Source: a virus. From it: 64,000 nt of DNA. The notes beneath the pieces are model-generated. The model saw nothing but the letters and a program-made list of their open reading frames with translations, did no database searches and had not been told where the DNA came from. Below are positions 3,360 to 24,109 of the stretch, one piece after another (the first letter of the stretch is position 1; each line of letters starts with the position of its first letter). The stretch covers positions 1 to 64,000 of the IMG/VR virus record IMGVR_UViG_3300047564_001181. One strand, given 5' to 3'. The position numbers were made by a program, and so were the translations under genes.

Positions 3360-3363
3360 TTAG

Positions 3364-3678: not shown

Positions 3679-3712
3679 GATAAAGACAATTATACAACAA
3701 TTTGTATTTTAT

Positions 3713-3976: not shown

Positions 3977-4041
3977 TGCTTTTTTGTTTCCTTTCCGCTA
4001 TAATAGCGTCTTGAGTAACTAAGTATAGTAGAAAGATTATT

Positions 4042-5111: not shown

Positions 5112-5234
5112 ATTCAAACTCTATATCTTTGCTGTTTTAGTTCTGTATTTTGGATTTAGAATGACATCTATGATTATAGATAAGCTACACCTAGACTTTT
5201 CAGATGTAGTACTTACTGAAGACTAATATATTAA

Positions 5235-5281
5235 TATTTCCCCCAGCCGACATCTTGTCTAACGCTAGGGGAAATTTTTTT
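5235..5281 (+). terminator. Intrinsic terminator of the thyX operon
   Basis: AATTTCCCC...GGGGAAATT stem followed by a T run. Confidence 0.6.
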
Positions 5282-5583
5282 ATTCCCAAGGATAAAAATT
5301 TATTCCCAAAAACTAAAAAATATGTTACTTAGTAGTATATATTATTGTTTATTGGATATTTTATAATTGACAAAAATGTTAATAAAATTTTATCTTGTAT
5401 GATGCGTGTTTTCTGAACTCCTTATCAAAAAATGTAGTGAGCACATCACAAATAGTTCTATTTTGGGACAAAAGGTACATTCGTTATCAAACTGTTATCA
5501 AAGTTGTCCTATTTGTACGCATTTCTAACTTGCAAATGTGAGACCTATCCTGTATCTTTGGACACATAAGAAAGGAAGTTTCA

Positions 5584-5730
5584 ATGTTTGAAATGGAACT
5601 ATTAGATGAACTACTAGATGTAGATGTCAATGAATGCTCTGTATGTAATGCCCTCTCTGTTCCTCGTGAATGTAAGTCTTGTGGAATGGATACTTGTGCT
5701 ATCTGTGTTAGTTGCGAATACTGCGACTAA
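5584..5730 (+). CDS. Cys-rich microprotein (48 aa)
   Basis: AAAGGAAG RBS; four CxxC pairs; absent from the ORF track. Confidence 0.65.
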   Translation: MFEMELLDELLDVDVNECSVCNALSVPRECKSCGMDTCAICVSCEYCD

Positions 5731-5780
5731 TGTCAGACCTATCTGCTACACTCTCCCTACCTACTAAAGAAAGAAACAAA

Positions 5781-5981
5781 ATGGATAAGCAAATCTGCAC
5801 CCTTGAAATCGTAATTGATAATACGCCTTACTACTATGAGGCTCATTCATACCAGCGTGTTGCCGAAATCTTGCACGGGCAAATTGAAACTCTAAATAAA
5901 CTAAATGAACTTTATCCGCAAACCTATGGTAAAAAGTCAATTGACACTTTCACAATTCACTACTTTCAGGAAGTAAAATAA
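5781..5981 (+). CDS. Hypothetical protein
   Basis: ATG after promoter copy 2 and an AAAGAAAG purine-rich leader. Confidence 0.6.
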   Translation: MDKQICTLEIVIDNTPYYYEAHSYQRVAEILHGQIETLNKLNELYPQTYGKKSIDTFTIHYFQEVK

Positions 5982-6299
5982 TTGTTTGACTTATCTTTCA
6001 TAACTGACCCATTAGCAACTATTGCTCAATGGGTTGGCTATGGTCTAATCGGTATCTTTATTGTTGGCTCACTATTCCTATTAGTTGTTGTGCCTGTAAT
6101 GTTCAAGATGGCAGCCGTATCGTTTGCTCGTGTGTTAGTTGTAGAGACTAGCAATCTACTAAGCAAATCAGGATTAGCAAATCAATTTAGCAATGCTGTT
6201 GATAGTGTTAGCAAGGCAAGCAATGAACTAACAAAGGCAATGCAAAAGCAAAACACTTATCAAGTTATCAAGTTAGATGAGGAGAAGATAAATGCTTGA
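5982..6299 (+). CDS. Membrane protein
   Basis: Long hydrophobic N-terminal segment. Confidence 0.6.
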   Translation: MFDLSFITDPLATIAQWVGYGLIGIFIVGSLFLLVVVPVMFKMAAVSFARVLVVETSNLLSKSGLANQFSNAVDSVSKASNELTKAMQKQNTYQVIKLDEEKINA

Positions 6300-6595
6300 G
6301 ATACTATTCCTAATCATAGGCTTTGCAATGGGACATCTATTTGCAACTAATAAATCATTGACACAAAAACTAAATGAATTAGATAGATAAATGGAAATAG
6401 TAATTCTAACAGTGTTAGTTCTATTTGCAATTGCTGTAATGACTAACCATAAGTAACACCCGCCCAGGGCGACATGCCCGAGCGGGGTCCCCCGCCTGTG
6501 GATAACTCTTGTCAAATCGTGTCCACCATTTGGACGGCGTGTCTTGCTTATTGCGAATACTTTGCAAGTAGTATCTCATTATTTGGAATAACGGC

Positions 6596-6632
6596 GTGTC
6601 AAGTTGAAATCTATCTCTAAATAGTGTATCTT
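6596..6632 (+). promoter_or_regulatory. Sigma-A promoter with upstream GTGTC (WhiA-like) box
   Basis: GTGTC-aag-TTGAAA-N17-TATCTT upstream of ORF 6660. Confidence 0.55.
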
Positions 6633-6659
6633 TAGCCATAGATAGAAAGGAAGTTCCAA

Positions 6660-6815
6660 ATGCACGGAAACTCAAAGTTCAAACTCACTCAGCAACTGAT
6701 TGACGCTCAGCGTGGATTAGAAATGCAATTAGAGCGTGACCCTTCAAATGATAGAATGGTTGAATACTACAAGAAAGAAATCTCTCGCCTGACCAAGCGT
6801 GTCTATGGCGTGTAA
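6660..6815 (+). CDS. Hypothetical protein (51 aa)
   Basis: GAAAGGAAG RBS; MHGNSKFKL... Confidence 0.65.
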   Translation: MHGNSKFKLTQQLIDAQRGLEMQLERDPSNDRMVEYYKKEISRLTKRVYGV

Positions 6816-6863
6816 TGTCAGACCCTTGTGCTACACTCTCACCCTAACGAAAGGAAAACTAAG

Positions 6864-7034
6864 ATGAACTTAGAAAAACAAAATCAAATCAAAGACTTAC
6901 TGAAAGTCTGTTATTCAAATGAAAAAGAAATTGTATTAGACGCAAGATTTTTTGGAATGTGTCAGGCTATGCTTACTGATGAGCAAGCAGACACTATGAT
7001 TTCATACATACAAAAATGGATTGAGGAAAAATAA
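6864..7034 (+). CDS. Hypothetical protein
   Basis: GAAAGGAA RBS; MNLEKQ... Confidence 0.65.
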   Translation: MNLEKQNQIKDLLKVCYSNEKEIVLDARFFGMCQAMLTDEQADTMISYIQKWIEEK

Positions 7035-7190
7035 ATGGGTGCAGTAAAAAATGCTCTAATTGAAATTCTAGAATGTAAATTGTGTTATGGTAAAGGTTAC
7101 TCAGGTTGGGCTAATACCGAAGGTGACTATGAGTTTGAATGGTGCGAATGCAACCCCTACGAGTTTGATGTAAGTGAATGGAGTAACTAA
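7035..7190 (+). CDS. Zn-ribbon-like microprotein
   Basis: CKLCYGKG...WCEC; abuts both neighbouring ORFs. Confidence 0.6.
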   Translation: MGAVKNALIEILECKLCYGKGYSGWANTEGDYEFEWCECNPYEFDVSEWSN

Positions 7191-7399
7191 TGGGATACAT
7201 AGAAATAATTTCATTTGATGAAAATGGAGTAACTAAAAAAAATCTTAATGAATTAAATTTTGATGAAAGAGTTTCATTAGAGGTTGATGTAGATTTAGCA
7301 TTATCAGGATTTGAAAAAGTGCAACTGCTCTGCGTAAATTGTTTAGTTGAAATTCCTAGTGGCTCAGGATTTTATTGCAAAAAACATTTACCCAAGTAG
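7190..7399 (+). CDS. Hypothetical protein with C-terminal CxxC...CxxH
   Basis: ORF track; TAATG coupling. Confidence 0.6.
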   Translation: MGYIEIISFDENGVTKKNLNELNFDERVSLEVDVDLALSGFEKVQLLCVNCLVEIPSGSGFYCKKHLPK

Positions 7400-7566
7400 T
7401 GAGATGAGCTGTCTCACCATTTGAAACGGGGGACCCCGCCGTGTGATGCACATCACAAAAATAGTTATACTCACAAGTAACTAAACTGCCTAAAAATAGG
7501 TACAAAATAGGACATATTCAATTTCCAATGTCAGACCCCCTATGTATACTCAGACCTATAAACACC

Positions 7567-7623
7567 GAGAGTGTGAGCCTCGCAAATAATCCCGAAAGGG
7601 TGAGCCGAGCAAATAAAACTCTC
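7567..7623 (+). ncRNA. Candidate pseudo-symmetric structured 5' leader, copy 1
   Basis: GAGAGT/ACTCTC outer stem, CCC-GAAA-GGG inner hairpin, two TGAGCCNNGCAAATAA strands. Confidence 0.6.
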
Positions 7624-7642
7624 ACTAAAGAAAGGTAATCAG

Positions 7643-7786
7643 ATGATTGCACTAGAAGTAATAGAAAGTGCAGAAACTATTTTCTGCGAAATTCATTCAG
7701 ACTATGTTCATAGTGCTGAGTGTGTTGATTGCGAAATGAGTTCGTGTGCCGATTGCTTACGCTCATTCGGTTGCGATAACTGCTAA
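7643..7786 (+). CDS. Cys-rich microprotein similar to 5584..5730
   Basis: GAAAGGT RBS; CxxH, CxxC, CxxC, CxxC. Confidence 0.65.
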   Translation: MIALEVIESAETIFCEIHSDYVHSAECVDCEMSSCADCLRSFGCDNC

Positions 7787-7824
7787 CCATAACTAAATAA
7801 ATTTTACTAAGAAAGGAAGTCACT

Positions 7825-8022
7825 ATGACTAACTCAATAACTATCACCCTTGAAGGTCAGTATGCTGGCTGGAATGTAACCTACTTTGAAGGTTGCACCG
7901 TTTGCGAAAATGCAAAGGCTGAAAATAAGCCTCCGTTTATCTATCACAATAACTGTCTCTATGGTGGACGCAAAGTCGGTCACTCATCTGACGGTCACTG
8001 CACCGCTGACGCTTGCTACTAA
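7825..8022 (+). CDS. Cys/His-rich small protein
   Basis: AAAGGAAG RBS; CxxC...H..C...H....HC...C. Confidence 0.65.
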   Translation: MTNSITITLEGQYAGWNVTYFEGCTVCENAKAENKPPFIYHNNCLYGGRKVGHSSDGHCTADACY

Positions 8023-8089
8023 AATAGCAAGTTTCAATGTCAGACCCCCCTGCTATACTAATCCCATAACCAAACGAAAGGAAAACTCT

Positions 8090-8215
8090 ATGAATCTCCA
8101 AGAGTTTCAAGCCAAAGTCCAAGCAGACCGCTTGGCACAAGCGGAACAACTCCGCAAAGAAAACCTTGCAAAGTCTGCAAAGTTTCTCGCTACTCTAACT
8201 AAGGAAGGAAAGTAA
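8090..8215 (+). CDS. Small helical protein
   Basis: RBS; MNLQEFQAKV... Confidence 0.6.
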   Translation: MNLQEFQAKVQADRLAQAEQLRKENLAKSAKFLATLTKEGK

Positions 8216-8392
8216 AATGTCATCACTCTTTTACTTTGATTTTTATTTTGATACAATCAACGGATTGATTATCGAATTCCCATTTCTGAATCTGCAAATT
8301 GCTCCGTCAGTTATTTATCTTTTTATTTTGACAATTATCGCTTTGCGAATTCGTAAAGTTTATTTTCTAGATAGAAAGCGTGGTCGCAGATA

Positions 8393-8557
8393 ATGATGAC
8401 TAGAAAAGACTATGTGCGAACCGCTGAAATTCTAAACACATTCAAAGATGAAATTGATAAAACAATTTTTGAAGATTTGATTTTCAACTTTGGCGAAATG
8501 TTTGCAATTGATAATCCAAATTTTGACCCTGCAAGATTTTCTCAGGCTTGCAAATAA
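8393..8557 (+). CDS. Small protein, MTRKDY...DNPxFD..RF..AC family, copy 1
   Basis: Paralogue of 10469..10645. Confidence 0.7.
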   Translation: MMTRKDYVRTAEILNTFKDEIDKTIFEDLIFNFGEMFAIDNPNFDPARFSQACK

Positions 8558-9049
8558 TCTAAACCCGCAGGGCGTGTCGGATTGACACGCCCGAGGGCGG
8601 GGGACCCCGCATAACGATTTAATAACAAAAAGATACACCCTATAGGATAAGCTTGAATTATCTACCCAAAATAGGGCAATCACCTATTTTCAATGTCAGA
8701 CCCCCTCGCTAGTATTGGGTTTCCAACCCACTACGAAAGGTTCACTGTGAGCAACTACTATGATGATGACTACTACGAGCAGGAAGGTTCGGTCACCTAC
8801 ATTGGTGACTGCTCCTGCTATGACAACTACATCTGTCGGAGTTGTTTGCAAAAGTGGTAAGGGGCTAATTGGTAGGGCGACCAAAACATTTGGCTGCCCT
8901 ACCAAATCCAAAGGCGGGGGACCCCCCTTGTGGATAACTCGTGTGACGGACATCACAAAAAAAATATTTATCCACAGCCCATTTTGTCCCGATTTTAGGG
9001 CTTCCAATGTCAGACCCCCCTTGTATAATTCTACTATGAAAATTAAATA

Positions 9050-9118
9050 GTGAGCGTTTAGGTGAGCCTAGCAAATAAGTCAGAAATGAATGAGCCTAGC
9101 AAATAAACTAAACGCCAC
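9050..9118 (+). ncRNA. Candidate pseudo-symmetric structured 5' leader, copy 2
   Basis: GCGTTTAG/CTAAACGC outer stem, TCA-GAAA-TGA inner hairpin, two TGAGCCTAGCAAATAA strands. Confidence 0.6.
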
Positions 9119-9148
9119 AAAATAAACTTACTAAAGAAAGGTTCTTAA

Positions 9149-9271
9149 ATGAATACTGAAAATGAAAATAAAGAAATCACTTGTGAAATGTGTTTAATCT
9201 TTGGTGAATACACTCACATTGCTTATGTAAATGGTCACGGATACCATTGCACTTGTGACCGCTGTTTCTAA
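9149..9271 (+). CDS. Cys/His-rich microprotein
   Basis: GAAAGG RBS; CEMC...HCTCDRC. Confidence 0.6.
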   Translation: MNTENENKEITCEMCLIFGEYTHIAYVNGHGYHCTCDRCF

Positions 9272-9324
9272 CAGCGTGTCATACCCCTATGCTACAATTT
9301 CTCCCATAACGAAAGGTAAACTAA

Positions 9325-9450
9325 ATGTTTTGTAATGTATGTAATGATTTTATTGATAGTGCATTTGATGAAGAGGTAACTTGCATAGATTGTGCGTTGT
9401 CTGATTTTGATTTAGAAATTGAAGAGATTGAATTGGAAGAGGTATTCTAA
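9325..9450 (+). CDS. Acidic Zn-ribbon-like microprotein
   Basis: RBS; CNVC...CIDC with Glu-rich tail. Confidence 0.6.
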   Translation: MFCNVCNDFIDSAFDEEVTCIDCALSDFDLEIEEIELEEVF

Positions 9451-10242
9451 ATGATGTTCTACAATGGATTTAATTTACTTATTGATTTAATTTTGATTAG
9501 CGTTACTGCGTTATGGTTTCACGGCGTTGGATATCGTAAGGCTAAGCACTACTATCAGAATAAATTCAAGGGATATTTCAAACCCCCGTTCTAGCGACAC
9601 GCCCGAGCGGGGTCCCCCCGCCAGCTCCGCTGTCAAATCGACACGCCGTAAATCCTAAAATTGTTATCAAATGTTTACCAAAATCGGACAAATGCCTTAT
9701 TCGAGTGTGGCGAAGGTCACAAACTAAATTCGGACAAATGCGACTTTCGAGTTGCCGAATGTCAGACCCCTATGGTATCTTTAGCACATAAAGAAAGGAA
9801 GTCTAATGACAAACTCATTCAAGTCACTTGATGAACTCAAGCAATTCGTGCTTGCTGAAAAAATTGCTAACTATGAACAACAAAAATTAGTTGAGCAAAA
9901 ATTGTTCGCTTCACTACAAAAGAAAGGTAACAACTAATGTTAGATTGCGATTGGTGCGAAAAATATTTCGCTATGCAAGATTTATTCAATGTAGACTACT
10001 TAGGTGGTTTCGCTAATGTGTTATGTGCAAAGTGTGTTGATGAGGCACACAAAATGTTTGCAGATACACTAGAAGGAGTGTGGCAGTAATGTTGCTAAAC
10101 ACTTATGCTAAAACTCAACTAATGTGTTGCTATTGCGAAGGCTTATTGCCTAGTGATGCAAAATGGTGCGAGAGTTGCCAAGAATACAAAGGCGTAATGA
10201 CTATCGCAAACTTTCAAGAAATCTATGGAGAGGAATACTAGA

Positions 10243-10455
10243 ATGTATCCAATTACTGAATTGCTAAAAGGTGGCTCAATGTACACTATCAAAAGTGGAG
10301 TGTTCATTGAAGACATTGACCGAGTAGAATTTGACGCTTGGGGTAAGTTGCGAATTCGTGGCTATCACACCGAATGGTATGGAATACTTAGCCATTCACC
10401 AAAGCGTGAGCGTTGGACTATTCTTGACCCTAACGACATTGACCTAAGTGCATAA
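10243..10455 (+). CDS. Hypothetical protein
   Basis: ORF track; start MYPIT after GAGGA. Confidence 0.55.
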   Translation: MYPITELLKGGSMYTIKSGVFIEDIDRVEFDAWGKLRIRGYHTEWYGILSHSPKRERWTILDPNDIDLSA

Positions 10456-10468
10456 GGAGAAATAAAAA

Positions 10469-10645
10469 ATGATGACACGCAAAGACTATGTAGCAACTGC
10501 AGAAATTCTAAATGGAAATAGAATTTTTATTCACCCTGCAACATTCGCAGAATTAGTAAATGAATTTGGAAATTATTTTGAAAATGATAATCCACGATTT
10601 GATTTTGCAAGATTTGAAAATGCTTGCAACGGAAAGGAAAAATAA
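10469..10645 (+). CDS. Small protein, MTRKDY...DNPxFD..RF..AC family, copy 2
   Basis: AAGGAG RBS; paralogue of 8393..8557. Confidence 0.7.
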   Translation: MMTRKDYVATAEILNGNRIFIHPATFAELVNEFGNYFENDNPRFDFARFENACNGKEK

Positions 10646-10968
10646 AATGGATTTATTAGCATTAGCAATAATTATGGCAATTGCAATTCCGTTTTTTATT
10701 CACTTGGAAAAATAATAAAATGGAAATTGTAATTTTATTTTTTGTTTTACTTTTTATTTTTGCAATTGGAACTAATTCAAAATAAAAAAGTGTATCGCAA
10801 CACGAGCAGCTGCGAGGGCGGGGGACCCCCGCAAGCCCTGGATGTCAAGCCGACACTCCGATAAATTTTGTGAGATTAATCACAAAAGTCGTGTCCGAAT
10901 TGGTAGGATTCTGAGTTGTGGATGTCAGTGGCTTATGGTATCTTTAGACCCTAACGAAAGGGGTCTTA

Positions 10969-11505
10969 ATGACTAACTACTTTGAAAAATACTTAGCAAT
11001 TGCTAAGAGTGCAACACTATCTCAGGTTGAACAAGCAACGCAATGGTATGCAGACGCAGAATTATTAGCGAATGATGTAATGCGAATTCTAAACTCTCGT
11101 GGCGTTGAATGTAATCTTGAACAAGCCTCGTCAATTGTATCCTCATTCTCACCTCGTAATCGTTGGTCACGCAATGTAGTGCAAGCATTAGAATTTGCGA
11201 ATGGTGGATTGCCTAATGGATTGCAAAATAATTTGCGAATGGCACAATACTCACTCGTGCAAGGTTTCAGTGCGTTGCGTGGAATGAAAACTAATGCATT
11301 CGCTCGTGCAATTGCAGGTGATGATAGTGCAGTTACAATTGATGTGTGGATGATAAAATCTGCTGAACTAAATAAAAATTCTGTAAATAAAACTGAATAC
11401 GCAGAATTAGTTAGTGCAGTTAATTTAGTTGCGGATGAATTAAAATTAACTCCACGAGTAACGCAAGCGTTAATCTGGATTGTGTTTAGAGGTAGTGCAT
11501 ACTAA
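10969..11505 (+). CDS. DNA-glycosylase-like (HhH-GPD-related) phage protein
   Basis: WY...SP..RW..N, K..AF...VTIDVWM and QALIW motifs. Confidence 0.5.
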   Translation: MTNYFEKYLAIAKSATLSQVEQATQWYADAELLANDVMRILNSRGVECNLEQASSIVSSFSPRNRWSRNVVQALEFANGGLPNGLQNNLRMAQYSLVQGFSALRGMKTNAFARAIAGDDSAVTIDVWMIKSAELNKNSVNKTEYAELVSAVNLVADELKLTPRVTQALIWIVFRGSAY

Positions 11506-12055
11506 TGGAAATTTTATTTTTACTAATTGCATTATTATTTTTAATTGCAAAATTAACAAACACAAAATAAAAAAGCTAGGGCGACACGCCCAAGCGGGGG
11601 GACCCCCGTATCGGGTCCCCCGCCCCTTTTGTACTAATTTACGAGAGGCTAATTTTATTCACTGGAATTTTACGATAGGCAAACAAAAAGGCTGGAACTT
11701 GTCCAGCCTTTAAGATTTCTGTCTCACTATTTGGGATTTGTCAACAAAGCGATAATGAAACAAAATAATAACAAAATGATAACAATTTCCAAACTATCCC
11801 TTTCGCCCTATTTTTATTAGTAGCCAATTTTACCAAAAAGTAACCAAATTGTCAAGGGTGTCCAAATAGTGAGATTATTCTAAATTATCTTGACAAGCAT
11901 AGGCTCTATGGTGTAAGGTAGCCCTATGAAACCAATACTCTCACCCAAAGCAACGCCTGAGCAATTACAGGCACGACTTGAACTACGCCGTTCAGGTGCG
12001 TCAGGCTTGCATAAAAATAAGAAAGCATACTCCCGAAAGGAAAAGCACAAGAATA

Positions 12056-12241
12056 ATGAATACTAAGTCATACTTTCTATCAGAGTTAGATTACTCAACC
12101 ATAGTTTCTGCACTTGCAAAACTTGCAGACTTTCACTTTGAAAAGTCAAAGACTTTGAAGCGTGAACAAGATGTTCAATTTCACTATGAACAATTTCAAA
12201 AAGTAATGGAAGTAAAGTTCAACCTACGGGAGCAAAAATGA
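12056..12241 (+). CDS. Hypothetical protein
   Basis: ORF track; likely start MNTKSY. Confidence 0.55.
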   Translation: MNTKSYFLSELDYSTIVSALAKLADFHFEKSKTLKREQDVQFHYEQFQKVMEVKFNLREQK

Positions 12242-12579
12242 CATATGCACTAAAAGTAACTACAAGTGGTGAGCGTATCGGTATCAACTATGACGCTGAC
12301 GAATCCTATGAAACTATCTCACAAGCAGTTGGTGGTTGGATTGAATGTGTTCGCCTTACACCTACGCTTGATATGTGGGTAAATGAGGAAGGCAAGTTAG
12401 ACGGGTTAGACTACAACCCTGACGCTACTGCTATCTTTTGGTCACACTTTGGCTTGATGTCAGATGTGATTGTCGGTGATGTTATTTTTACTTCACACGA
12501 TGATGAGGGAAATACAACCTCTCTTGAAAATGAACAAATGGAATATTTACAAAAACACATAGGAGCATTCAGTGAATGA
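12238..12579 (+). CDS. DUF3846-like protein
   Basis: VGGWIE...MWVNEEGKL..L..N..AT...IVGDV pattern. Confidence 0.75.
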   Translation: MTYALKVTTSGERIGINYDADESYETISQAVGGWIECVRLTPTLDMWVNEEGKLDGLDYNPDATAIFWSHFGLMSDVIVGDVIFTSHDDEGNTTSLENEQMEYLQKHIGAFSE

Positions 12580-12781
12580 TTTTTGGAGACAATACTATTC
12601 AAGTCTTGAAGGTGCAACAATTACCAAATTCGCAGGTATGAACGATGCGGAAATGGGAGACGGATTCCCAGCCTTTATGGTGCGTTTCGCAAATGGTGAT
12701 GAAGGTATCATTGAGATTTCTCGTGACCCTGAAGGTAATGGTGGCGGATTTATTTTCGGATTAAATATGCCGCAGCAATAA
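12572..12781 (+). CDS. Hypothetical protein
   Basis: Contains the SRDPEGNGGGF motif seen in small phage proteins. Confidence 0.6.
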   Translation: MNDFWRQYYSSLEGATITKFAGMNDAEMGDGFPAFMVRFANGDEGIIEISRDPEGNGGGFIFGLNMPQQ

Positions 12782-12997
12782 TTTTTTAAATTATTTTTTA
12801 AATTTAATTTAAATTATTTCTAAATTTTATTTAGAAAGCTGGGGGTCCCCCGCCCGCTTTGTGATTTTAATCACAAAAATATTTCTACCAAGTAGTAACT
12901 AAACCCCATAAAATTGGGACAAAATAGGACATTCTCAAAAGGTGATGTCAGACCCCCCTGCTAGTATTGGGCTATGCCCAAACGAAAGGAAATGCAA

Positions 12998-13132
12998 ATG
13001 ATTATTTGCTCAAAATGTGATGAAGTTCTTTACACCGACACTATGCCCGAAGGCTTTGACGAAAATGTATTTGTAATGTGTGCCTCTTGTGCATACGATT
13101 ACACAATGTCAGACCCTAATGGTATTCTCTAA
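12998..13132 (+). CDS. Zn-ribbon-like microprotein
   Basis: CSKC...CASC; in-frame leaderless ATG at 12974 also possible. Confidence 0.6.
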   Translation: MIICSKCDEVLYTDTMPEGFDENVFVMCASCAYDYTMSDPNGIL

Positions 13133-13154
13133 CCACTAACCCGAAAGGAAAAAA

Positions 13155-13379
13155 ATGTTCTCACTCCCCGTTGATGTAGCAACCCCTTGCTCAACTATTC
13201 CACTTGCCGAAGCCGACAAGTTATTTTTTAGCGAAAGCCCAAAGCGTATCGCTGTTGCAAAAAATCTCTGTGCCTCTTGCCCTATCACCTCAAAATGTTT
13301 GCAGTTCGCACTTGATGAGGAAATTGAGTTTGGCATTTTTGGTGGCACAACTCCACAAGAAAGAAAGGTAATGCTCTAA
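13155..13379 (+). CDS. whiB: WhiB-family transcription factor
   Basis: C...CxxC-x5-C and GIFGG turn; driven by promoter copy 12. Confidence 0.9.
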   Translation: MFSLPVDVATPCSTIPLAEADKLFFSESPKRIAVAKNLCASCPITSKCLQFALDEEIEFGIFGGTTPQERKVML

Positions 13380-13500
13380 TGGAATACCAAGTTACAAAAG
13401 TAGTCACCTATTGGGTGCAAGCAGAAAGCCGAGACGAAGCATTAGCAAAAGTCAAAGCAGGAAAAGTAAAACCAAGCGAACAGTATTTGGAGGCTAACTG

Positions 13501-13701
13501 ATGTATCGCTCACAAGTTGATTTGATTTTGAATTTTGTAGACAACAGCACAATGTTGTTTGCTGATGTTCACCCTGATAACACTTACAAAGTTGTAGACG
13601 GGCTAATTACTTTTGAAAGTAATGACGGCGAACAAATCCATTACCTGCCAGCAGTAAATGTAAAAAACTTTTTTACTGTTGCAACCGAACCACACGATTA
13701 G
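13501..13701 (+). CDS. Hypothetical protein
   Basis: ORF track. Confidence 0.6.
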   Translation: MYRSQVDLILNFVDNSTMLFADVHPDNTYKVVDGLITFESNDGEQIHYLPAVNVKNFFTVATEPHD

Positions 13702-13711
13702 GAGAAACAGA

Positions 13712-13924
13712 ATGACTGAAGAATTAACAGCATACCGATACCACCGAGACGGACTAATTTTTTCTTGGCTTGGTGGTGCATACATAGAAATTTATTTTGA
13801 AGGTAATGCAATCCCCTATGATGTTTTGAATGTGTGGAACTATGAAAAAGATGAGCCAACAATTGAACGCTCTATGCGTGGGCTAGTTGATTTCATAGAT
13901 GCAGAAATGGAATTGGAAGAGTAG
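13712..13924 (+). CDS. Hypothetical acidic protein
   Basis: AGGAG RBS; start MTEEL. Confidence 0.6.
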   Translation: MTEELTAYRYHRDGLIFSWLGGAYIEIYFEGNAIPYDVLNVWNYEKDEPTIERSMRGLVDFIDAEMELEE

Positions 13925-14080
13925 CGACAAGGGCGGGGGACCCCGCCCCTGGACTGGCAGCTTTCACCCTTTACGACTATGCAAAAAAAATCACGGAAAT
14001 TCTTTTACGATACACTTGACAAATCGCTGAAAATCGTGTATGTTTGCCTAGTAAATCCAACCACTATCAAAGGAAATCAA

Positions 14081-14410
14081 ATGGGAAGTAATCTCTCAAA
14101 TGAAATGACAGACGGAACACTCGAAGACTTGGGTATTAGTTTGTCACTAGAAGACCAAATCACTATTCAACTACGCTCTAATCACTATCCACCCGTTCCT
14201 TATTCTATGGTGCAACCTTGCATTGACGCTATCTTGGCTTGCAACGAAGATGAGAGTAACCGACAAATTGAACTGCCTGAAGGTGTGCTATGGCGTAATC
14301 AAACTACTGCACCTGCATACGCTATCGTTGAAGGTCACCACCTTGACGCTTGGGTAGACTATGGTGATGTCTACGAATACGAAGACTATGATGTAAGTGA
14401 GGATTACTAA
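14081..14410 (+). CDS. Hypothetical phage protein
   Basis: AAAGGA RBS; start MGSNL; NHYPPVP...HHL motif. Confidence 0.65.
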   Translation: MGSNLSNEMTDGTLEDLGISLSLEDQITIQLRSNHYPPVPYSMVQPCIDAILACNEDESNRQIELPEGVLWRNQTTAPAYAIVEGHHLDAWVDYGDVYEYEDYDVSEDY

Positions 14411-14411
14411 A

Positions 14412-14618
14412 ATGGAAGATGAAGTAATCAACCGCTATGCTGTAAAGGTTATTGTTGAATACTACTATGATGTAGAGGCAAAGACTAAAGAAGAAGCAGA
14501 AGAAGAAGGTTGGAAGTATGAAGACTATCCTTATTCTGCCGAAGTCTATTCAATAGATGTAGACTTATTGGAAGAAGACATTTATGGAGAAGAGCCTGAA
14601 GATGAAGATGTGGACTAA
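14412..14618 (+). CDS. Very acidic protein with VEA..EEA motif
   Basis: ORF track; start MEDEV. Confidence 0.6.
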   Translation: MEDEVINRYAVKVIVEYYYDVEAKTKEEAEEEGWKYEDYPYSAEVYSIDVDLLEEDIYGEEPEDEDVD

Positions 14619-14838
14619 TGAGACTTGTCTCAACTGCCCTAATCTAATGAAAAATGAATGGTATGCATTCGCAGATGATGACATTCAGTTATGCCACGCT
14701 TGTTACAATAATGAAAATCTAAGGAAACATTCTTATGCCAAAATCTAAGACTGTGTATCGTTGTGCAAATGGACACACATCTACTAACTCAAAAGACGCT
14801 CTATTGCAATTCTTCTGCAAATCCTGTTTAGAAGAAAA

Positions 14839-15054
14839 ATGATGTATTATTCTTACATGAAGAAAGCATGGCACATTGACGGCTACACATTCAATGGGGA
14901 GATTTATTGCCGCTCCTGTGTAGCAGAAACACTTGAAGACCCCGACTTCAATGACCCTTACACTCTAGATGAACACCCACAGTTCAAACCAATCTTTGCA
15001 TCTGATAATGATGATGAACTGATGTGTGACTACTGCTTCGCAGAGTTGGACTAA
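14839..15054 (+). CDS. Zn-binding small protein
   Basis: CRSC...CDYC. Confidence 0.6.
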   Translation: MMYYSYMKKAWHIDGYTFNGEIYCRSCVAETLEDPDFNDPYTLDEHPQFKPIFASDNDDELMCDYCFAELD

Positions 15055-15190
15055 TCCAGCTCTGCGGGGGTCCCCCGCCTCCAAATATTTATAAAAAATA
15101 TTTGGATTTTTATCCGATTTCCTATTGACAATTTTCAGATTTTGGTGTATCTTTGCCCTGTAAATAAAACCCCACTACTAAGGAGAAAAA

Positions 15191-15685
15191 ATGGGATTAG
15201 ATATGTATCTCTATGCAGATAAGTATGTAAGCCGTAAGTCAAACACTCGCATTGAAGGAACTGACTATGACTACTACGACAATGAAGCATTTGCAACTAT
15301 TGTTTCGGCTCTCAATGCAGATAAGTTGATTGACAACGAATGGTCTGGTATGACTGTTTCTTTGCCTATCGGTTATTGGCGTAAGGCTAATGCTATCCAT
15401 TCTTGGATTGTTGATAATTGTGCAGACGGCGTTGATGAATGTCAGCGTATCTACATCTCTAAGGATAAGGCTGAGGAGTTAGTCTCTATCTGCAAAGAGG
15501 TTATCAAAAATAAGTCTAAGGCTACCGAACTCTTGTCTCCACGAGCAGGATTTTTCTTTGGTTCATTAGACATTGACGAATACTACATTCACGACCTCAA
15601 GCGTACTGTTGAAATCTTTGAGAAAGTTCTCAGGGCTTCCGAGCGTGGCGAGATTGAAAGTGTAGTCTACCAAGCAAGTTGGTAA
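15191..15685 (+). CDS. Conserved phage protein (MGLDMY...YWRKANAIH family)
   Basis: AAGGAG RBS; recognisable family motif, function unknown. Confidence 0.75.
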   Translation: MGLDMYLYADKYVSRKSNTRIEGTDYDYYDNEAFATIVSALNADKLIDNEWSGMTVSLPIGYWRKANAIHSWIVDNCADGVDECQRIYISKDKAEELVSICKEVIKNKSKATELLSPRAGFFFGSLDIDEYYIHDLKRTVEIFEKVLRASERGEIESVVYQASW

Positions 15686-15768
15686 AACTTGGTTGGGTGG
15701 GCTTGACAAAGCCCACCCACCTATGATACACTTCCCCCGTAATACAAACCCACTAACAAAGGAAAACT

Positions 15769-16203
15769 ATGGAAAACACATTCAACTTTGAACAAGCAAG
15801 TTATGTAGATTTGCTTGCAGAAGCACAACGCCTAAACGGATTAGTTGCAGACCTTCACGGAACTGCTACAACCGCCAGCAACAAACTTATGTATGTTGAA
15901 AAGGCATTTGCTAATCGTGACCGACAATACGCACTAGCAAAAGAAATTCTTACAACTCTCATTGAAGAAAATGAGATTGAAAATGAAGAAGCCGTAAAGC
16001 AACTCATTGAAATCTTTGACATTGAGATTCTAAAGTCTGTTGAGTTCACCTTGACTATTGAAGTCACAGGAACTATTGAACTTCCAATGGGTTCAGAACT
16101 AGATGAATACTCATTCACCCTTGAGAGTCTTTCTTACAATGGAGATGATGTAAGTATTGACCACGAAAGCATTAGCATTGACGATTGGAACTTTACTGAA
16201 TAA
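15769..16203 (+). CDS. Acidic hypothetical protein
   Basis: RBS and own promoter. Confidence 0.7.
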   Translation: MENTFNFEQASYVDLLAEAQRLNGLVADLHGTATTASNKLMYVEKAFANRDRQYALAKEILTTLIEENEIENEEAVKQLIEIFDIEILKSVEFTLTIEVTGTIELPMGSELDEYSFTLESLSYNGDDVSIDHESISIDDWNFTE

Positions 16204-16871
16204 TAGTGGGTGAGATGTGCTGGGCATCACTTAAAACTGCCCACTTAATAATTTGTCTCTGATAAGCACTTGGCTTAATTGCTAGGTTATTCCTGAGATA
16301 AGACTCCTGAGCAAGAGTTCTAAACTGCTCATTTACCCCCGCAAAACGGGGGACCCCAGCTGTGACGCATGTCACAGTATTTCTTTACGAACACCCTTGA
16401 CAAACCCTGTAATCTGTGATAGATTTTCCCTATGGAAAACAACAAATCACCCCTAGAAATTGTAATGGAATGGTATCCTGACGGAAACTTCACAGAAGAA
16501 GACCTTTGGGAAGCAATAGGCGAAAGTGACGGCTGGAAGCAAGATTACTACGCAGACGGAGACTTAGCAGAATGGCTCTAAAGTTTGACCCACTAGATGA
16601 CATTGAAGTATGCTCTAAGTGCTTTGATGATGAGGAATATGACTTTGGACTATGCATTGCTTGTGTAGAAGAAATGTTGGAGGACGAACTTGAATCTGTT
16701 CGATAATGTAATTGACGAAAAAGTCATTGAATCATTAGATAAAGAGACATTAGAACAACTCCTAAATATTTTGGAAAAAATCTAAAAATACCCTTGACTT
16801 TCTTGCCGAGATACGGTAAGATTACCTAGTAATCAAATTGGTTACTAAAACTACAAAAGAAAGAAGCAAAA

Positions 16872-17021
16872 ATGATTGAAATCGGTTCAAGTTTCACAAC
16901 TGCTAAATCAGGTGTTGTTGGAACTGTTCAAGAAGTAATCAAAAACGCAAATGGCTCTTTGCGTGTTCGCCTTGATGTCAATGGTGCAGACCGTTGGACT
17001 ACTGTAAAGGAAGGCAAGTAA
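16872..17021 (+). CDS. Small beta-barrel (SH3-like) protein, copy 1
   Basis: MIEIGSSFTTAKSGVVGTV...LDVNGADRWTT; tandem paralogue of the next gene. Confidence 0.65.
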   Translation: MIEIGSSFTTAKSGVVGTVQEVIKNANGSLRVRLDVNGADRWTTVKEGK

Positions 17022-17179
17022 TGTCTAAGCCTATGTACAAAGTCGGTGACACTTTCACCACGCTCAAGTCTAAAGTTACAGGAGTTATCAAAGAAATTAC
17101 TCCTGTGAACTCAAACACAGTTCGCATTCTGCTTGATGTAAACGGCAAAGACCGTTACACTACATACAAAGCAGACTAA
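17021..17179 (+). CDS. Small beta-barrel (SH3-like) protein, copy 2
   Basis: YKVGDTFTTLKSKVTGVI...LDVNGKDRYTT. Confidence 0.65.
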   Translation: MSKPMYKVGDTFTTLKSKVTGVIKEITPVNSNTVRILLDVNGKDRYTTYKAD

Positions 17180-17516
17180 TTTCCACAAAGGGTGGAAAAC
17201 CTAAATGATAGGGTAGTTACGGCTCGCAATGATACACGAGTAAGAATACCGTAGTCGGTATCGCCGTAACCGTTCTCGCATAACGCAAATTGCGAAACAC
17301 CTGAGCAAGTGTCAAAACTGCTCTCTTGCTAAAGCAATTCCCAGAGATAAGTGGGATATGCACACCTGAGTAAGTGTTAAAACTGCTCATTTTTTAATGA
17401 GCAGAGCTGGGGTCCCCCCGCTTGGATTCCCCAAAACTTTATGAGTTTTGGGCTTGACTTTTTGATTACGATAGTGTAGGTTTAGCCCTGTAAATAACCC
17501 ACGAAAGGAAATACAA

Positions 17517-17720
17517 ATGGCAAGATACGAAGTAGAAGTTATCGGACACTTCTCGTCTGTTGTAGAAGTAGAAGCAGATTCATACGAAGAAGCAGAAATG
17601 GTTGCAGTGCAAGACTTTGAGCAAGACTATTCTCCATACTCATCTAAAAATGGTTGGACAGATTCTTGGGGTCATACGGAAATAGAGATGTGCCGTAATC
17701 TTGATGAAGAAGAATACTAA
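17517..17720 (+). CDS. Acidic protein with VEADS.EEA motif
   Basis: RBS and promoter. Confidence 0.65.
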   Translation: MARYEVEVIGHFSSVVEVEADSYEEAEMVAVQDFEQDYSPYSSKNGWTDSWGHTEIEMCRNLDEEEY

Positions 17721-18042
17721 AATGCAACTTGCATACTTTGCTGGTGACGGCAACTACGGATTAGAAAATGGTAACTTTGTTCTCGTAGATGTATCTAAGT
17801 GGACAGAAGAAGATTGGGAGCGTATTGAAATGGCTTCTGATTATCAACGACCAATGATGGCTATGTCTATCTCCGCAGTTTATGAGGGATAAAGTGAAGA
17901 ATAGTCAAGACAGTTTCTACTGGTCAGAACTGGCAGAACTAACACACGAAACACAAGTAGGTATCTTTGGCTGGTGTTCTTGTGAAGACAACGAAGACAA
18001 CGATAATCCATTTGGTGATTGTCCTAAAGATGAAGGATAATA

Positions 18043-18276
18043 ATGTCTGATAACTTAGAGTTTCATTATGTAGTTTCATACCGAGAAGGCTACGGCTGGG
18101 GCATTGCAATAGATGTTGAACAGGCTGTAATGACTGACGGAACTATCTATGATTGGACACAAGGAAATGGTTGGACTTTCCCATTAGAAGGTGAACTATC
18201 CGACCTTGACTTACATCACTATCGTATGCTAAACTCCGCACTAAACCTACTAAATGAAGGAGCAATAAATGCCTAA
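18043..18276 (+). CDS. Hypothetical protein
   Basis: ORF track; AAGGA RBS. Confidence 0.6.
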   Translation: MSDNLEFHYVVSYREGYGWGIAIDVEQAVMTDGTIYDWTQGNGWTFPLEGELSDLDLHHYRMLNSALNLLNEGAINA

Positions 18277-19003
18277 CTGGGTATTCAATACAGTTGTTGT
18301 TTCAGGTGACAAACTTGAACTAGACAAACTACAAGCACAACTAAATCAGCCATTTGAAAAGCATTTCCCTGATAGCAACTTCAATCAGGAAACTAAAGAA
18401 TGGGAACACACACCTTCAACTCAGGTCTATTCTAATCCTGTATTTGCTTTCTGGAATGTTGTTCGTCCTACCGACCTTGAAGCCTACTATGGTGAAGAAA
18501 AGGAAAAGGTTGGACTAGATAACTTTATGGCAGATTTCAATAATGCTATTGCAACTGGAGAGTCTTGGTATTATTGGAACTTGCGTAACTGGGGAACAAA
18601 GTGGGATGTCTCTGTTACAGATGGAGAGAAGTATTCAGACACATCTCTTGAAGTAATGGATGATGAGACTATTCTGTATCGTTTCCATACTGCTTGGTCT
18701 CCTGTTCACGAAATCTTCAACATTCTTTCAGAACAGTATCCTAGTTTAGAGTTTGACTATGAATACGAAGAAGAACAAGGTTGGGGTGGAAGTGCATTAT
18801 GGGTAGATGGTTACTTAGTTGGTGAAGAACAATACGACATTCCAAACTCACACTATGACTATGAAAAACGAGACAGAGAATGTCATTGTTCAGAAGGTGA
18901 AGCCGTAGATTGGGCTTACTCAGACTGTCCTGTTGATACTGAAAAGTATGAATGGAACAGCGATAACCATAACTGGGTTGAGAAGCAAGGGGTGGAGGCT
19001 TAG
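18269..19003 (+). CDS. DUF1281/YubB-like (ferredoxin-like fold) protein
   Basis: MPNW..N, WY.W...NWGTKWD and F.TAWSP motifs. Confidence 0.75.
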   Translation: MPNWVFNTVVVSGDKLELDKLQAQLNQPFEKHFPDSNFNQETKEWEHTPSTQVYSNPVFAFWNVVRPTDLEAYYGEEKEKVGLDNFMADFNNAIATGESWYYWNLRNWGTKWDVSVTDGEKYSDTSLEVMDDETILYRFHTAWSPVHEIFNILSEQYPSLEFDYEYEEEQGWGGSALWVDGYLVGEEQYDIPNSHYDYEKRDRECHCSEGEAVDWAYSDCPVDTEKYEWNSDNHNWVEKQGVEA

Positions 19004-19160
19004 CCTCCCCCCCAAGCTCGGGGGTCCCCCGCCTTCCCCGATTTGTCAAGTGCCAAATCGGAAATGTCCGAAATAAATATTTATTTATTTAGACTTGACA
19101 AATGCCTATCTAATCGTGTATCCTTGCCTAGTAAATAAAAAACTAACTAAGGAGAAAAAA

Positions 19161-20138: not shown

Positions 20139-20179
20139 CTCTAGCAACCTGAGCAAGTTGTAAAACTGCTCACCTATTT

Positions 20180-20256
20180 GGTTCTGTAGCTCAGTTGGTT
20201 AGAGCGTTGCCCTGTCACGGCAAAGGTCACGAGTTCAAGTCTCGCCAGAATCGCCA
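20180..20256 (+). tRNA. tRNA-Asp(GUC)
   Basis: Cloverleaf; TTGCC-CT-GTC-AC-GGCAA anticodon arm; TTCAAGT T-loop; encoded CCA. Confidence 0.9.
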
Positions 20257-20388
20257 GCGGCGGGGGACCCCGCACTCGGGCGTGTCTATTCATATGAATA
20301 GTCATCTATAAATAGATTACGAGCTTCCAAAAAAAATCACTGGAATTTTGGGCTTGACAAATCCGTGCTTATGGTATAGGGTGTGCCT

Positions 20389-23270: not shown

Positions 23271-23284
23271 TTAAAATGTTATTG

Positions 23285-23310
23285 CTGCAAGCCTACGGGC
23301 TTGCAGCTTT
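23285..23310 (+). terminator. Intrinsic terminator ending the early region
   Basis: GCTGCAAGCC-tacg-GGCTTGCAGC followed by a short T run. Confidence 0.7.
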
Positions 23311-23403
23311 GGCATACCCAAAAAACGGGGACCATGCCAGGGTCCAGCAAATTGTCGACATATCTCTATATACACATATCCTTATATATCTAAACATACA
23401 TAC

Positions 23404-24020: not shown

Positions 24021-24109
24021 CTTTCTCTGATTAAATATAGGACATATCAGACATTTGACTTGTAGTCATAATTCTGATATACTCGTATCAGGTAAATCTA
24101 GGAGGATAA

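What the first reader, a model, noticed from the sequence alone, without database searches (positions are those of the whole stretch)
5537..13128. Phage early genes appear wired to the host PafBC DNA-damage promoter (12 copies)
Seen: twelve intergenic or gene-end sites read TGTCAG-N10-TANNNT with invariant spacing. Ten are exact and two have one mismatch; the 10923 copy reads TGTCAGTG-N8-TATCTT. Most lack a good -35, and each precedes tiny ORFs, including whiB. Known: TGTCRG-N10-TANNNT is the LexA-independent RecA-NDp promoter of Actinobacteria, activated by the WYL-domain heterodimer PafBC when it senses single-stranded nucleic acid. Inference: the phage uses the host's DNA-damage sensor to fire a battery of takeover or anti-defence genes when its DNA is injected, resected or attacked. 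I know of no description of such an array in a phage.
Basis: partly seen in the sequence, partly recalled or inferred. Interest (0 to 1): 0.92.

Follow-up and report, generated by a model that had tools for sequence, protein, structure and literature searches.

The report
Lake phage promoters copying PafBC boxes
An uncultured freshwater phage of actinobacteria starts a 7.6-kb block of tiny genes from twelve promoters built like those that actinobacteria switch on through PafBC, their single-stranded-DNA alarm protein, so it probably borrows that alarm, though nothing has been tested at the bench.

Summary
Twelve same-strand sites, TGTCAG-N10-TAnnnT (10 exact, 2 with one mismatch), lie at 5537-13128 and nowhere else in the 95-kb virus record. 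Each has a conserved +1 position and an SD plus start codon downstream, so they are real promoters.

The layout (GTC at -27..-25, 10-nt gap, sigma-A -10, no -35) is that of PafBC-dependent RecA-NDp promoters. In 38 of 40 sampled actinobacterial genomes recA has this layout upstream. At least four use the phage's own box variant, TGTCAGACC, before recA; one of these also uses it before an SbcD-like and a DnaQ-like exonuclease gene.

Neither this phage nor 19 relatives encode a WYL (PafBC-like) protein. At least 120 other viral contigs carry similar arrays, whereas two cultured Streptomyces relatives (Stanwilliamsviridae) checked do not.

The phage also has about 9 canonical TTGACA-N17-TAnnnT promoters, which leaves room for a T4-like cascade with a phage-coded activator. 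Its promoters add an extended -10 TG that cellular sites lack.

This scan has reported the same thing on other DNA (94 notes, at least 74 genomes). I found no paper describing it.

The parts
5537..5558 (+). Class-A promoter 1 (TGTGAG box, one mismatch; -10 TATCTT); predicted +1 near 5565; drives ORF 5584-5730 (48 aa, Cys-rich)
5731..5752 (+). Class-A promoter 2 (TGTCAGACC; TGc TACACT); box abuts the stop codon of the previous ORF; drives ORF 5781-5981
6816..6837 (+). Class-A promoter 3; drives ORF 6864-7034 and following small ORFs
7529..7550 (+). Class-A promoter 4; 86-nt leader holding GAGCCTCGCAAATAA; drives ORF 7643-7786 (Cys-rich)
8038..8059 (+). Class-A promoter 5 (TGTCAGACCCCCC, the same 13 nt as the recA box of cellular genome G370)
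8694..8715 (+). Class-A promoter 6; 21 of 22 nt identical to a cellular site in G370 (C12:19404-19425)
9008..9029 (+). Class-A promoter 7; 113-nt leader with two GAGCCTAGCAAATAA copies; drives ORF 9149-9271 (Cys-rich)
9277..9298 (+). Class-A promoter 8 (TGTCAT box, one mismatch); drives ORF 9325-9450 (Cys-rich)
9760..9781 (+). Class-A promoter 9; drives ORFs 9806-10645
10923..10944 (+). Class-A promoter 10 (TGTCAGTGGC-N6-TATCTT, the recA box form seen in several large sampled genomes); drives DUF7178 gene 10969-11505
12946..12967 (+). Class-A promoter 11; drives ORF 12998-13132 (Cys-rich)
13107..13128 (+). Class-A promoter 12, inside the 3' end of the previous ORF; drives whiB 13155-13379 and ORFs up to about 13924
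13155..13379 (+). WhiB-family gene (marker of an actinobacterial host)
   Evidence: PF02467, 1.4e-16
14016..24083 (+). Second promoter class on the same strand: canonical TTGACA/TTGACT-N17/18-TAnnnT at 14016, 15125, 15703, 16794, 17454, 19095, 20354 and 24055 (and 5367-5396 upstream of the array). They carry no TGTC box.
6482..20273 (.). GC-rich palindromic hairpins (GCGGGGGACCCCGC or its complement) at 6482, 7428, 8597, 8914, 9607, 10818, 12842, 13933, 15067, 19021 and 20260. Most lie about 60-100 nt before a promoter of either class and look like terminators separating the cassettes.
   Evidence: the terminator scan lists only the 15066 copy
14081..14410 (+). Most conserved early-region orphan protein (61 distinct homologs in motif-bearing phages). 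It is the first gene after the first canonical promoter and the only candidate I found for a phage-coded factor.

Best explanation
The twelve sites are transcription start signals of the PafBC-dependent (RecA-NDp) type. Host RNA polymerase with the housekeeping sigma A reads the -10 box (TAnnnT, mostly with an extended -10 TG). Because there is no -35 box, full activity needs the host PafB-PafC heterodimer, which sits between sigma region 4 and the DNA and reads the GTC of the TGTCAG box at -28..-23 ('sigma adaptation'). PafBC is always present but acts only when it binds single-stranded DNA. This block of about 35 tiny genes (Cys-rich mini-proteins, DUF7178, DUF3846, WhiB) would therefore fire when ssDNA appears in the infected cell, through end resection, nuclease attack or the start of phage replication. 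Each unit is separated from the next by a GC hairpin, which would explain why every 1-4 genes need their own promoter. Shown: the sites, their confinement to this block, their promoter anatomy, their identity in layout to cellular recA-type promoters, and the absence of a phage WYL gene. Inferred: PafBC binding, ssDNA gating, timing, and what the genes do.
For: (1) Ten exact and two near copies, all on one strand, within 7.6 kb and nowhere else in 95 kb.
(2) Promoter anatomy across 296 unique sites in 19 related phage loci: with TGTC and the -10 T, A and last T fixed by the search pattern, the free positions show G at position 6 in 78%, T/G at 14/15 in 84/85%, a pyrimidine at -1, and A (78%) exactly 7 nt after the -10. 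The strand split is 338 forward against 54 reverse.
(3) Positions 5-10 of the box differ between phages (AGACC, GGTGG, GGTAG, AGAGG; CC[A/T] in L022), while TGTC and the spacing stay fixed. That matches the published readout of the GTC triplet by PafB R46/R50 (PMC8635444).
(4) Cellular check: 38/40 sampled Actinomycetota genomes have GTC-N12-TAnnnT upstream of recA on the coding strand, against 4/40 on the other strand.
(5) The phage's own variant occurs in cells. G370 has TGTCAGACC-N7-TAnnnT before recA, before a leaderless SbcD-like gene and before a leaderless DnaQ-like exonuclease gene; a fourth G370 site is 21/22 identical to phage site 8694. G168, G272 and G338 also have it before recA. 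It occurs in 67/401 sampled genomes, about 175 matches against about 28 for the reversed control.
(6) A PWM trained only on cellular recA sites puts 8 array sites among the 12 best of about 190,000 positions.
(7) No WYL domain in this record or in 19 related records, three of them 90-100% complete. No sigma factor or HTH turned up among about 60 ORFs scanned.
(8) WhiB and DUF732 point to an actinobacterial host. Tandem WYL (pafBC-like) pairs were present in 26/26 relatives of one sampled actinobacterium and in a small low-GC order whose recA carries a TGTC box.
Against: No binding, reporter or TSS data exist, and no RNA run holds this DNA. The host is unknown, so whether it has pafBC is untested. 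Some small-genome actinobacterial lineages in the sample have LexA-box recA promoters and no WYL hit.

The phage promoters differ from cellular ones. They carry an extended -10 TG (8/12 canonical, 3 more abutting; 71% across the family), which the sampled recA promoters lack, and an A-rich tract instead of T before TGTC. An extended -10 could allow sigma A to start without any activator.

About 9 canonical TTGACA-N17-TAnnnT promoters on the same strand, and a late-looking TAYAATTA class, give a three-class layout like T4. In T4 the -35-less middle class depends on phage proteins. Most early ORFs are unannotated, so a phage-coded factor cannot be excluded. Site 5537 lacks the C of the GTC triplet. 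The cellular-PWM scores of single sites do not exceed the maxima of shuffled sequence.
Confidence: 0.62

Rival explanations
1. T4-like cascade with a phage-coded activator. The canonical TTGACA-N17-TAnnnT promoters (14-24 kb) are the true early promoters. One of their products (a MotA/AsiA-like pair, or a small sigma-4-binding protein such as the conserved orphan 14081-14410 or the phage WhiB) then directs sigma-A RNAP to the -35-less TGTC promoters as a middle class. On this view the likeness to PafBC boxes is convergence, or copying of the site without using PafBC.
For: The genome has three promoter classes. The TGTC class has an activator-type box in place of -35, as T4 middle promoters do. 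An orphan protein with a confident but unmatched fold is conserved in 61 motif-bearing phages and is the first gene after the first canonical promoter. Most small ORFs are unannotated. Two cultured relatives with a 55%-identical DnaE lack the array, so the system is specific to this phage clade.
Against: A phage-specific reader would not be expected to keep both the GTC core and the exact 10-nt spacing of the cellular class, nor to use box variants that also occur before cellular recA and sbcD genes, up to 21/22 identity. No HTH, sigma or WYL protein was found. The phage WhiB is itself behind a TGTC promoter, so it cannot start the class.
Confidence: 0.17
2. The sites are ordinary activator-independent extended -10 promoters. 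Sigma A reads TGnTAnnnT alone and the sites fire at once on entry, like the strong early promoters of the SPO1 host-takeover module. The TGTC box is then an accessory element: an operator for a repressor or shut-off factor, or a spacer element.
For: The extended -10 TG is strongly conserved in the phage family but absent from the sampled cellular recA sites. From general knowledge, extended -10 promoters work without a -35 in Gram-positive bacteria and actinobacteria. A tight array of strong promoters, strong SDs and tiny genes resembles the SPO1 host-takeover module (from memory).
Against: TGTC is at least as conserved as the TG, including in the 4 window sites without a canonical TGn. Its position is fixed to the base, and it equals the cellular PafBC box. 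An operator would more likely be palindromic and vary in position. The canonical class in the same genome shows that this phage uses a -35 box where it needs helper-free promoters.
Confidence: 0.14
3. The repeats are not promoters but another kind of repeated element, for example recombination or packaging sites, or cassette borders.
For: They recur at cassette borders together with GC hairpins.
Against: They keep a fixed distance to the SD and start codon, a conserved +1 A with a pyrimidine at -1, a -10 consensus and strict co-orientation with the genes.
Confidence: 0.02

Closest known systems
PafBC-dependent (RecA-NDp, recA P1-type) promoters of Mycobacterium, Streptomyces and other Actinobacteria, read by 'sigma adaptation' (PMC8635444, PMC6789036, PMC11804915)
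   Same: A 22-nt bipartite motif, tGTCgg-N10-tAnnnT. The box lies at -28..-23, the GTC core is conserved, there is a sigma-A -10 and no -35. The same box variants occur, including TGTCAGACC, TGTCAGTGGC and TGTCGGTGG. Starts are often leaderless or have short leaders.
   Different: Here the sites are in a virus, as an array of 12 in 7.6 kb (up to 26 in relatives), and they drive tiny orphan genes instead of DNA-repair genes. An extended -10 TG and an A-rich tract upstream are added. PafBC dependence is not shown.
Phage T4 middle promoters (MotA box at -30 plus sigma-70 -10; MotA/AsiA 'sigma appropriation')
   Same: An activator box replaces the -35, the housekeeping sigma reads the -10, and the class sits beside canonical early promoters and a minimal late class.
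   Different: In T4 the activator and co-activator are phage-coded and remodel sigma region 4. Here no phage factor was found, and the box is that of a host activator.
Bacillus phage SPO1 host-takeover module (from memory)
   Same: A compact block of many small genes, each with a strong promoter and a strong ribosome-binding site.
   Different: The SPO1 promoters are canonical sigma-A early promoters with a -35 box.
WYL-domain ssDNA sensors that control defence or damage genes (DriD, CapW, BrxR; PMC9186387, PMC11662680, PMC9122601)
   Same: The same idea of ssDNA as the alarm that changes transcription during damage or phage attack.
   Different: Those are host regulators of host genes. Here a phage appears to place its own genes under such a sensor.

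Membership tests
PafBC-dependent (RecA-NDp) promoter | TGTCRG-type box with the GTC triplet at about -27..-25 | tested here: met
   11/12 sites have GTC; 5537 has GTG. With +1 taken as the conserved A 7 nt after the -10, TGTC lies at -28..-25.
PafBC-dependent (RecA-NDp) promoter | Exactly 10 nt between the hexamer and a sigma-A -10 TAnnnT | tested here: met
   12/12 in the window. The same spacing holds in 19 relatives and at 38/40 cellular recA genes.
PafBC-dependent (RecA-NDp) promoter | No -35 hexamer | tested here: met
   0/12 reach 5/6 matches to TTGACA at 16-18 nt. In the wider family 13% do, against 2% at random positions.
PafBC-dependent (RecA-NDp) promoter | The same sequence class stands before DNA-damage genes in cells | tested here: met
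   TGTCAGACC-N7-TAnnnT stands before recA, an SbcD-like gene and a DnaQ-like exonuclease gene in G370, and before recA in G168, G272 and G338.
PafBC-dependent (RecA-NDp) promoter | PafBC binds with RNAP-sigma A and activates, only with ssDNA | not testable with these tools
   Needs in-vitro transcription or reporters. No RNA run holds the DNA.
PafBC-dependent (RecA-NDp) promoter | The host encodes PafB and PafC | tested here: inconclusive
Tandem WYL pairs occur in 26/26 relatives of G001 and in the G046 order, but WYL was found in only 1/8 genomes of the order of G328. An attempt to pick out acI genomes with a 16S probe failed.
Phage-coded PafBC-like regulator | A WYL-domain protein in the phage | tested here: not met
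   No PF13280 match at E <= 1 in G000, or at E <= 0.1 in 19 related virus records, three of them 90-100% complete.
T4-type middle promoter (sigma appropriation) | A phage-coded activator or co-activator that reads the box | tested here: inconclusive
   No HTH or sigma family in about 60 ORFs scanned. The conserved orphan 14081-14410 has no known fold: Foldseek best E 2.4, VIA best Z 3.3.
Extended -10 promoter | TGn directly before TAnnnT | tested here: met
   8/12 are canonical and 3 more have TG abutting the -10. Across the family 71% are canonical.

The most novel reading that the evidence does not exclude
The phage makes the host's ssDNA alarm its own trigger. The same PafBC signal that hosts use to turn on repair genes, and possibly defence islands, fires a battery of phage counter-measures. 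In addition, dozens to hundreds of replicated phage copies of the box draw PafBC-RNAP complexes away from the host regulon, so the array acts as both a sensor and a sink. This would be the first virus known to parasitise a WYL-domain alarm and the sigma-adaptation mechanism.
Probability: 0.2. Interest if true: 0.9.

Novelty: new variant of a known kind. Interest (0 to 1): 0.74.

Why it matters
PafBC and sigma adaptation are known only as a host DNA-damage response. If a large, abundant clade of lake phages runs a whole gene block on that switch, three things follow. First, it shows a way for viruses to time gene expression by sensing ssDNA through a host alarm protein. Second, it gives at least 120 natural promoter sets (about 800 sites) that map which box variants are in natural use. 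Third, it offers a host-prediction marker for actinophages whose hosts lack CRISPR spacers. It can be tested directly with existing M. smegmatis PafBC in-vitro and reporter systems.

Tried and rejected
**Naming the host.**
- My single genome-contig scan, with the phage WhiB, returned one 62%-GC MAG that is not the host.
I tried small genome size, GC content and rhodopsin as markers (that search found nothing anywhere, controls included).
It led nowhere.
- GC is a poor guide here, because the nearest cultured relatives (Stanwilliamsviridae) are, from memory, far lower in GC than their Streptomyces hosts.

- A protein-atlas look-up of the GMP reductase gave only viral clusters.
- No RNA holder was listed among the sequencing runs, so I made no expression test and did not use read laying.
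- Megablast of the 9-kb block against cultured phages found no match. tblastn of the conserved orphan against cultured phages found no match.
- Pattern scan was my own spacing error (0 hits). One search is the corrected scan.
- In one search I included one unpublished genome (G044) by mistake. Nothing in this report rests on it.

**Candidate factors.**
- The weak Sigma70_r2 hit at 27952-28047 (E 0.015) is not a sigma factor. The ORF matches PHROG 26427 'nuclease' at 1e-25.
- The orphan 14081-14410 folded well (pLDDT 83) but matched nothing: Foldseek best E 2.4, VIA best Z 3.3. This neither supports nor excludes a regulatory role.

**Other.**
- The cellular-recA PWM is too heterogeneous to give single-site significance.
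- The generic sigma-70 scan is not enriched overall (65 found against 61 expected). The canonical class is called from intergenic position and near-consensus boxes only.


Full report
**What the window is.** The window is the first 64 kb of a 95,186-bp IMG/VR virus record. The record is linear, estimated 87% complete and 38.5% GC. The same DNA is held by freshwater, river and lake metagenomes.

Genes run on the + strand from about 4 to 24.6 kb as small ORFs. From 24.7 kb onward they run on the - strand. That part encodes:
- replication and recombination genes: a DnaE-type polymerase, RecA, RuvC and a PD-(D/E)XK nuclease;
- nucleotide metabolism: ThyX and a GMP reductase;
- glycosyltransferases, a CHAP endolysin, five tRNAs and a tmRNA;

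A WhiB gene and a DUF732 protein mark the host as an actinobacterium. The DnaE is 55% identical to that of Streptomyces phages of the family Stanwilliamsviridae, with similar gene order around it.

**The observation.** It is correct in every detail I could check.
- TGTCAG-N10-TAnnnT occurs 10 times, against 1.0 expected and in 0 of 100 shuffles. All copies are on the + strand between 5731 and 13128.
- Two further copies with one mismatch lie at 5537 and 9277.
- A PWM built from the 12 sites scores them 27-43 bits. The next best position in the whole record scores 8, so the family is confined to this 7.6-kb block.
- Ten sites are followed at 18-25 nt from the predicted start by a GAAAGG-type SD and a start codon. 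Two have longer leaders of 86 and 113 nt.
- None has a usable -35.
- Eight have a canonical extended -10 (TGnTAnnnT), and three more have TG abutting the -10.

**They are promoters, and a family trait.** Homologs of the DUF7178 gene fetched 19 related viral loci.
- Eighteen of them carry 5-21 copies of TGTC[AG]G-N10-TAnnnT on the gene strand. The nineteenth, L022, uses TGTCC[A/T] with the same spacing.
- Over 296 unique sites, TGTC and the -10 T, A and last T are fixed by the search pattern. The free positions show G at position 6 in 78%, T/G at 14/15 in 84/85%, a pyrimidine at -1 and an A (78%) exactly 7 nt after the -10. That is the signature of a start site.
- This places TGTC at -28..-25.
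- In the four most complete or longest relatives, one estimated 100% complete, the sites form one cluster on one strand.
- In those 120 loci (1.08 Mb, GC 34-51%) there are 803 sites on the major strand against 34 on the minor strand.
- Two cultured Stanwilliamsviridae genomes have only 1 and 2 matches in about 130 kb.

**What kind of promoter.** The published PafBC motif is tGTCgg-N10-tAnnnT. Its box lies at -23..-28, PafB R46/R50 read the GTC triplet, there is no -35, and sigma A reads the -10 (PMC8635444). PafBC is activated by ssDNA bound to its WYL domains (PMC11804915).

I checked this against genomes rather than relying on memory:
- In a sample drawn evenly from one phylum (Actinomycetota by its WhiB and RecA content), 38 of 40 recA genes have GTC-N12-TAnnnT upstream on the coding strand. 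The opposite strand has it in 4 of 40.
- The cellular boxes vary (TGTCAGTGGC, TGTCGGTGG, TGTCGGAGG, TGTCACCCCGCAG, TGTCACACCCC) over the same positions that vary among the phages.
- One genome, G370, has TGTCAGACCCCCC before recA, the same 13 nt as phage site 8038.
- The same genome uses TGTCAGACC-N7-TAnnnT before a leaderless SbcD-like gene and a leaderless DnaQ-like exonuclease gene. A fourth G370 site is 21/22 identical to phage site 8694.
- G168, G272 and G338 also have this variant just upstream of recA.
- Across 401 sampled genomes the variant occurs in 67, with about 175 matches against about 28 for the reversed control.
- A PWM trained only on the cellular recA sites puts 8 array sites among the 12 best of about 190,000 positions in the phage. 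Single-site scores are not above shuffle maxima.

**Who reads the box.** No WYL domain is encoded in this record or in the 19 related records, three of which are 90-100% complete. No sigma, HTH or other transcription-factor family appeared in about 60 ORFs scanned with Pfam or PHROGs. A weak sigma hit proved to be a PHROG 'nuclease' family.

Tandem WYL gene pairs of the pafBC type are common: 26/26 relatives of one sampled actinobacterium have them. So does a small order of 1.3-1.5-Mb genomes (recA loci 37-42% GC) in which three of four recA genes have TGTCGC/TGTCGG boxes. Another small-genome order has LexA-box recA promoters and almost no WYL. The host's identity therefore matters, and I could not establish it.

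**What weakens the simple reading.**
- The same strand carries a second, canonical promoter class: TTGACA/TTGACT-N17/18-TAnnnT at 14016, 15125, 15703, 16794, 17454, 19095, 20354 and 24055, plus 5367.
- The - strand shows further canonical sites and a late-looking TAYAATTA class before five - strand genes in the distal, presumably structural, part of the genome.
- Three classes recall T4, where the -35-less middle class depends on phage proteins made from early promoters.
- The most conserved early-region protein (14081-14410) has 61 distinct homologs and invariant N-HYPPVP, C and HH-L positions. It is the first gene after the first canonical promoter. It folds confidently (pLDDT 83) and matches no solved fold. 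It is a candidate for a phage factor, nothing more.
- The phage promoters add an extended -10 TG that the sampled cellular recA sites lack. This could give PafBC-independent basal activity.

**How I weigh this.**
- 0.62 on host PafBC dependence. The exact core, the exact spacing and the shared box variants are hard to explain otherwise.
- 0.17 on a phage-coded activator.
- 0.14 on activator-independent extended -10 promoters with an accessory box.
- 0.02 on the sites not being promoters at all; the rest is unassigned.

**Anatomy of the block.** GC-rich palindromic hairpins (GCGGGGGACCCCGC) stand about 60-100 nt before most promoters of both classes. The block is therefore a row of cassettes: hairpin, promoter, then 1-4 tiny genes. 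Six of the twelve first ORFs are Cys-rich, zinc-ribbon-like mini-proteins. Their functions are unknown, so 'takeover' or 'anti-defence' remains a guess.

**Prior knowledge.** Full-text searches for PafBC or RecA-NDp together with phage terms found nothing on phage promoters of this class. The nearest papers concern PafBC and phage resistance of the host (cited in PMC12848934). This scan has noted the same pattern before on other DNA: 94 notes in at least 74 genomes, with follow-ups reaching the same partly-supported verdict. Those are unchecked AI notes and I do not count them as evidence.

**Unpublished genomes.**
- The tallies (26/26, 389/401, 67/401, and the approximate match counts) include genomes flagged as unpublished: G019; G027, G044, G074, G108, G114, G172, G198, G250, G263, G292, G342, G360, G367 and G415; and G367.
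- No sequence from these genomes is quoted, and none of the 40 recA loci or the named examples (G370, G168, G272, G338, G046, G361, G383) is among them.

Noticed in passing
window 14016-24083 (+), also 5367-5396; - strand near 27900, 56570, 58330: A second promoter class of canonical TTGACA/TTGACT-N17/18-TAnnnT sites stands in intergenic gaps, often followed by a conserved GCC(T/C)(A/T)GTAAAT stretch. Together with a TAYAATTA motif before late genes (about 29650, 80960, 84830, 87730 and 94830 in the record) this gives a three-class, T4-like layout.
   Followed up: partly
window 6482, 7428, 8597, 8914, 9607, 10818, 12842, 13933, 15067, 19021, 20260: A GC-rich palindromic hairpin, GCGGGGGACCCCGC, occurs in either orientation about 60-100 nt before most promoters. 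These are probably terminators that separate the cassettes. The generic terminator scan lists only one of them.
   Followed up: partly
window 7575, 9064, 9092; also L011, L012, L017, L023: The conserved leader element GAGCCTNGCAAATAA occurs only in the two long 5'UTRs (86 and 113 nt). It recurs after TGTC promoters in related phages. It may be a regulatory RNA or a binding site.
   Followed up: no
window 7504, 8668, 12921 (also 5505-, 9680, 24034): A second motif, AAAATAGGRCA, starts about 25 nt upstream of the TGTC box at several promoters (12 matches with up to one mismatch, against 3.9 expected). It is centred near -50 and its reader is unknown.
   Followed up: partly
window 42222-42406 (-): Rfam places a manA RNA here (82 bits, gathering score 55) between two tRNAs. 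A tmRNA lies at 43467-43727 (-), and tRNAs Asp, Asn, Thr(TGT), Glu and Arg(TCT) are present. The A-ending-codon tRNAs hint at a host with higher GC than the phage.
   Followed up: partly
window 5584-5730, 7643-7786, 8747-8860, 9149-9271, 9325-9450, 12998-13132: Six of the twelve first ORFs behind the promoters are 37-48-aa proteins with four or more Cys in CxxC-type pairs, which looks zinc-ribbon-like. None has a family match.
   Followed up: no
window 14081-14410 (+): This orphan protein is conserved in 61 motif-bearing phages, with invariant N34, Y36-P40, C47, H86 and L88. It has a confident AlphaFold model (pLDDT 83, pTM 0.71) and no match in the PDB.
   Followed up: yes
window 23390-23530 and 23600-23700: A dense cluster of TTATCCACA-type (DnaA-box-like) 9-mers sits next to repeated AAAAATCACGG(G/A)A / TTACGA elements. 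The latter also occur before canonical promoters at 13990 and 20330, and as TTACGAAATCGTGGA repeats in L022.
   Followed up: no
window 24110-24643 (+), 26593-27093 (-), 51771-52778 (-): The phage encodes an HslV-family peptidase (PHROG 1e-19), a DenV-type pyrimidine-dimer glycosylase (Pfam 5e-21) and its own RecA. It therefore brings DNA-damage functions of its own.
   Followed up: no
L191 (IMGVR_UViG_3300020044_005177), 270-9000: A 51%-GC phage contig carries 26 TGTCAGACC-type promoters in 9 kb, one every 150-1080 nt (mostly 180-330). Several have the start codon 6-7 nt after the -10, which means leaderless mRNAs, an actinobacterial habit.
   Followed up: partly
G046, G361, G383 (loci L052, L054, L055, L066-L068): A small order of 1.3-1.5-Mb actinobacteria (five species held; recA loci 37-42% GC) has one tandem WYL pair in each of the three genomes tested. 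Their recA genes have promoters of the TGTCGC/TGTCGG-N10-TAnnnT type. By contrast, the order of G328 has LexA-box recA promoters and WYL in 1 of 8 genomes.
   Followed up: partly
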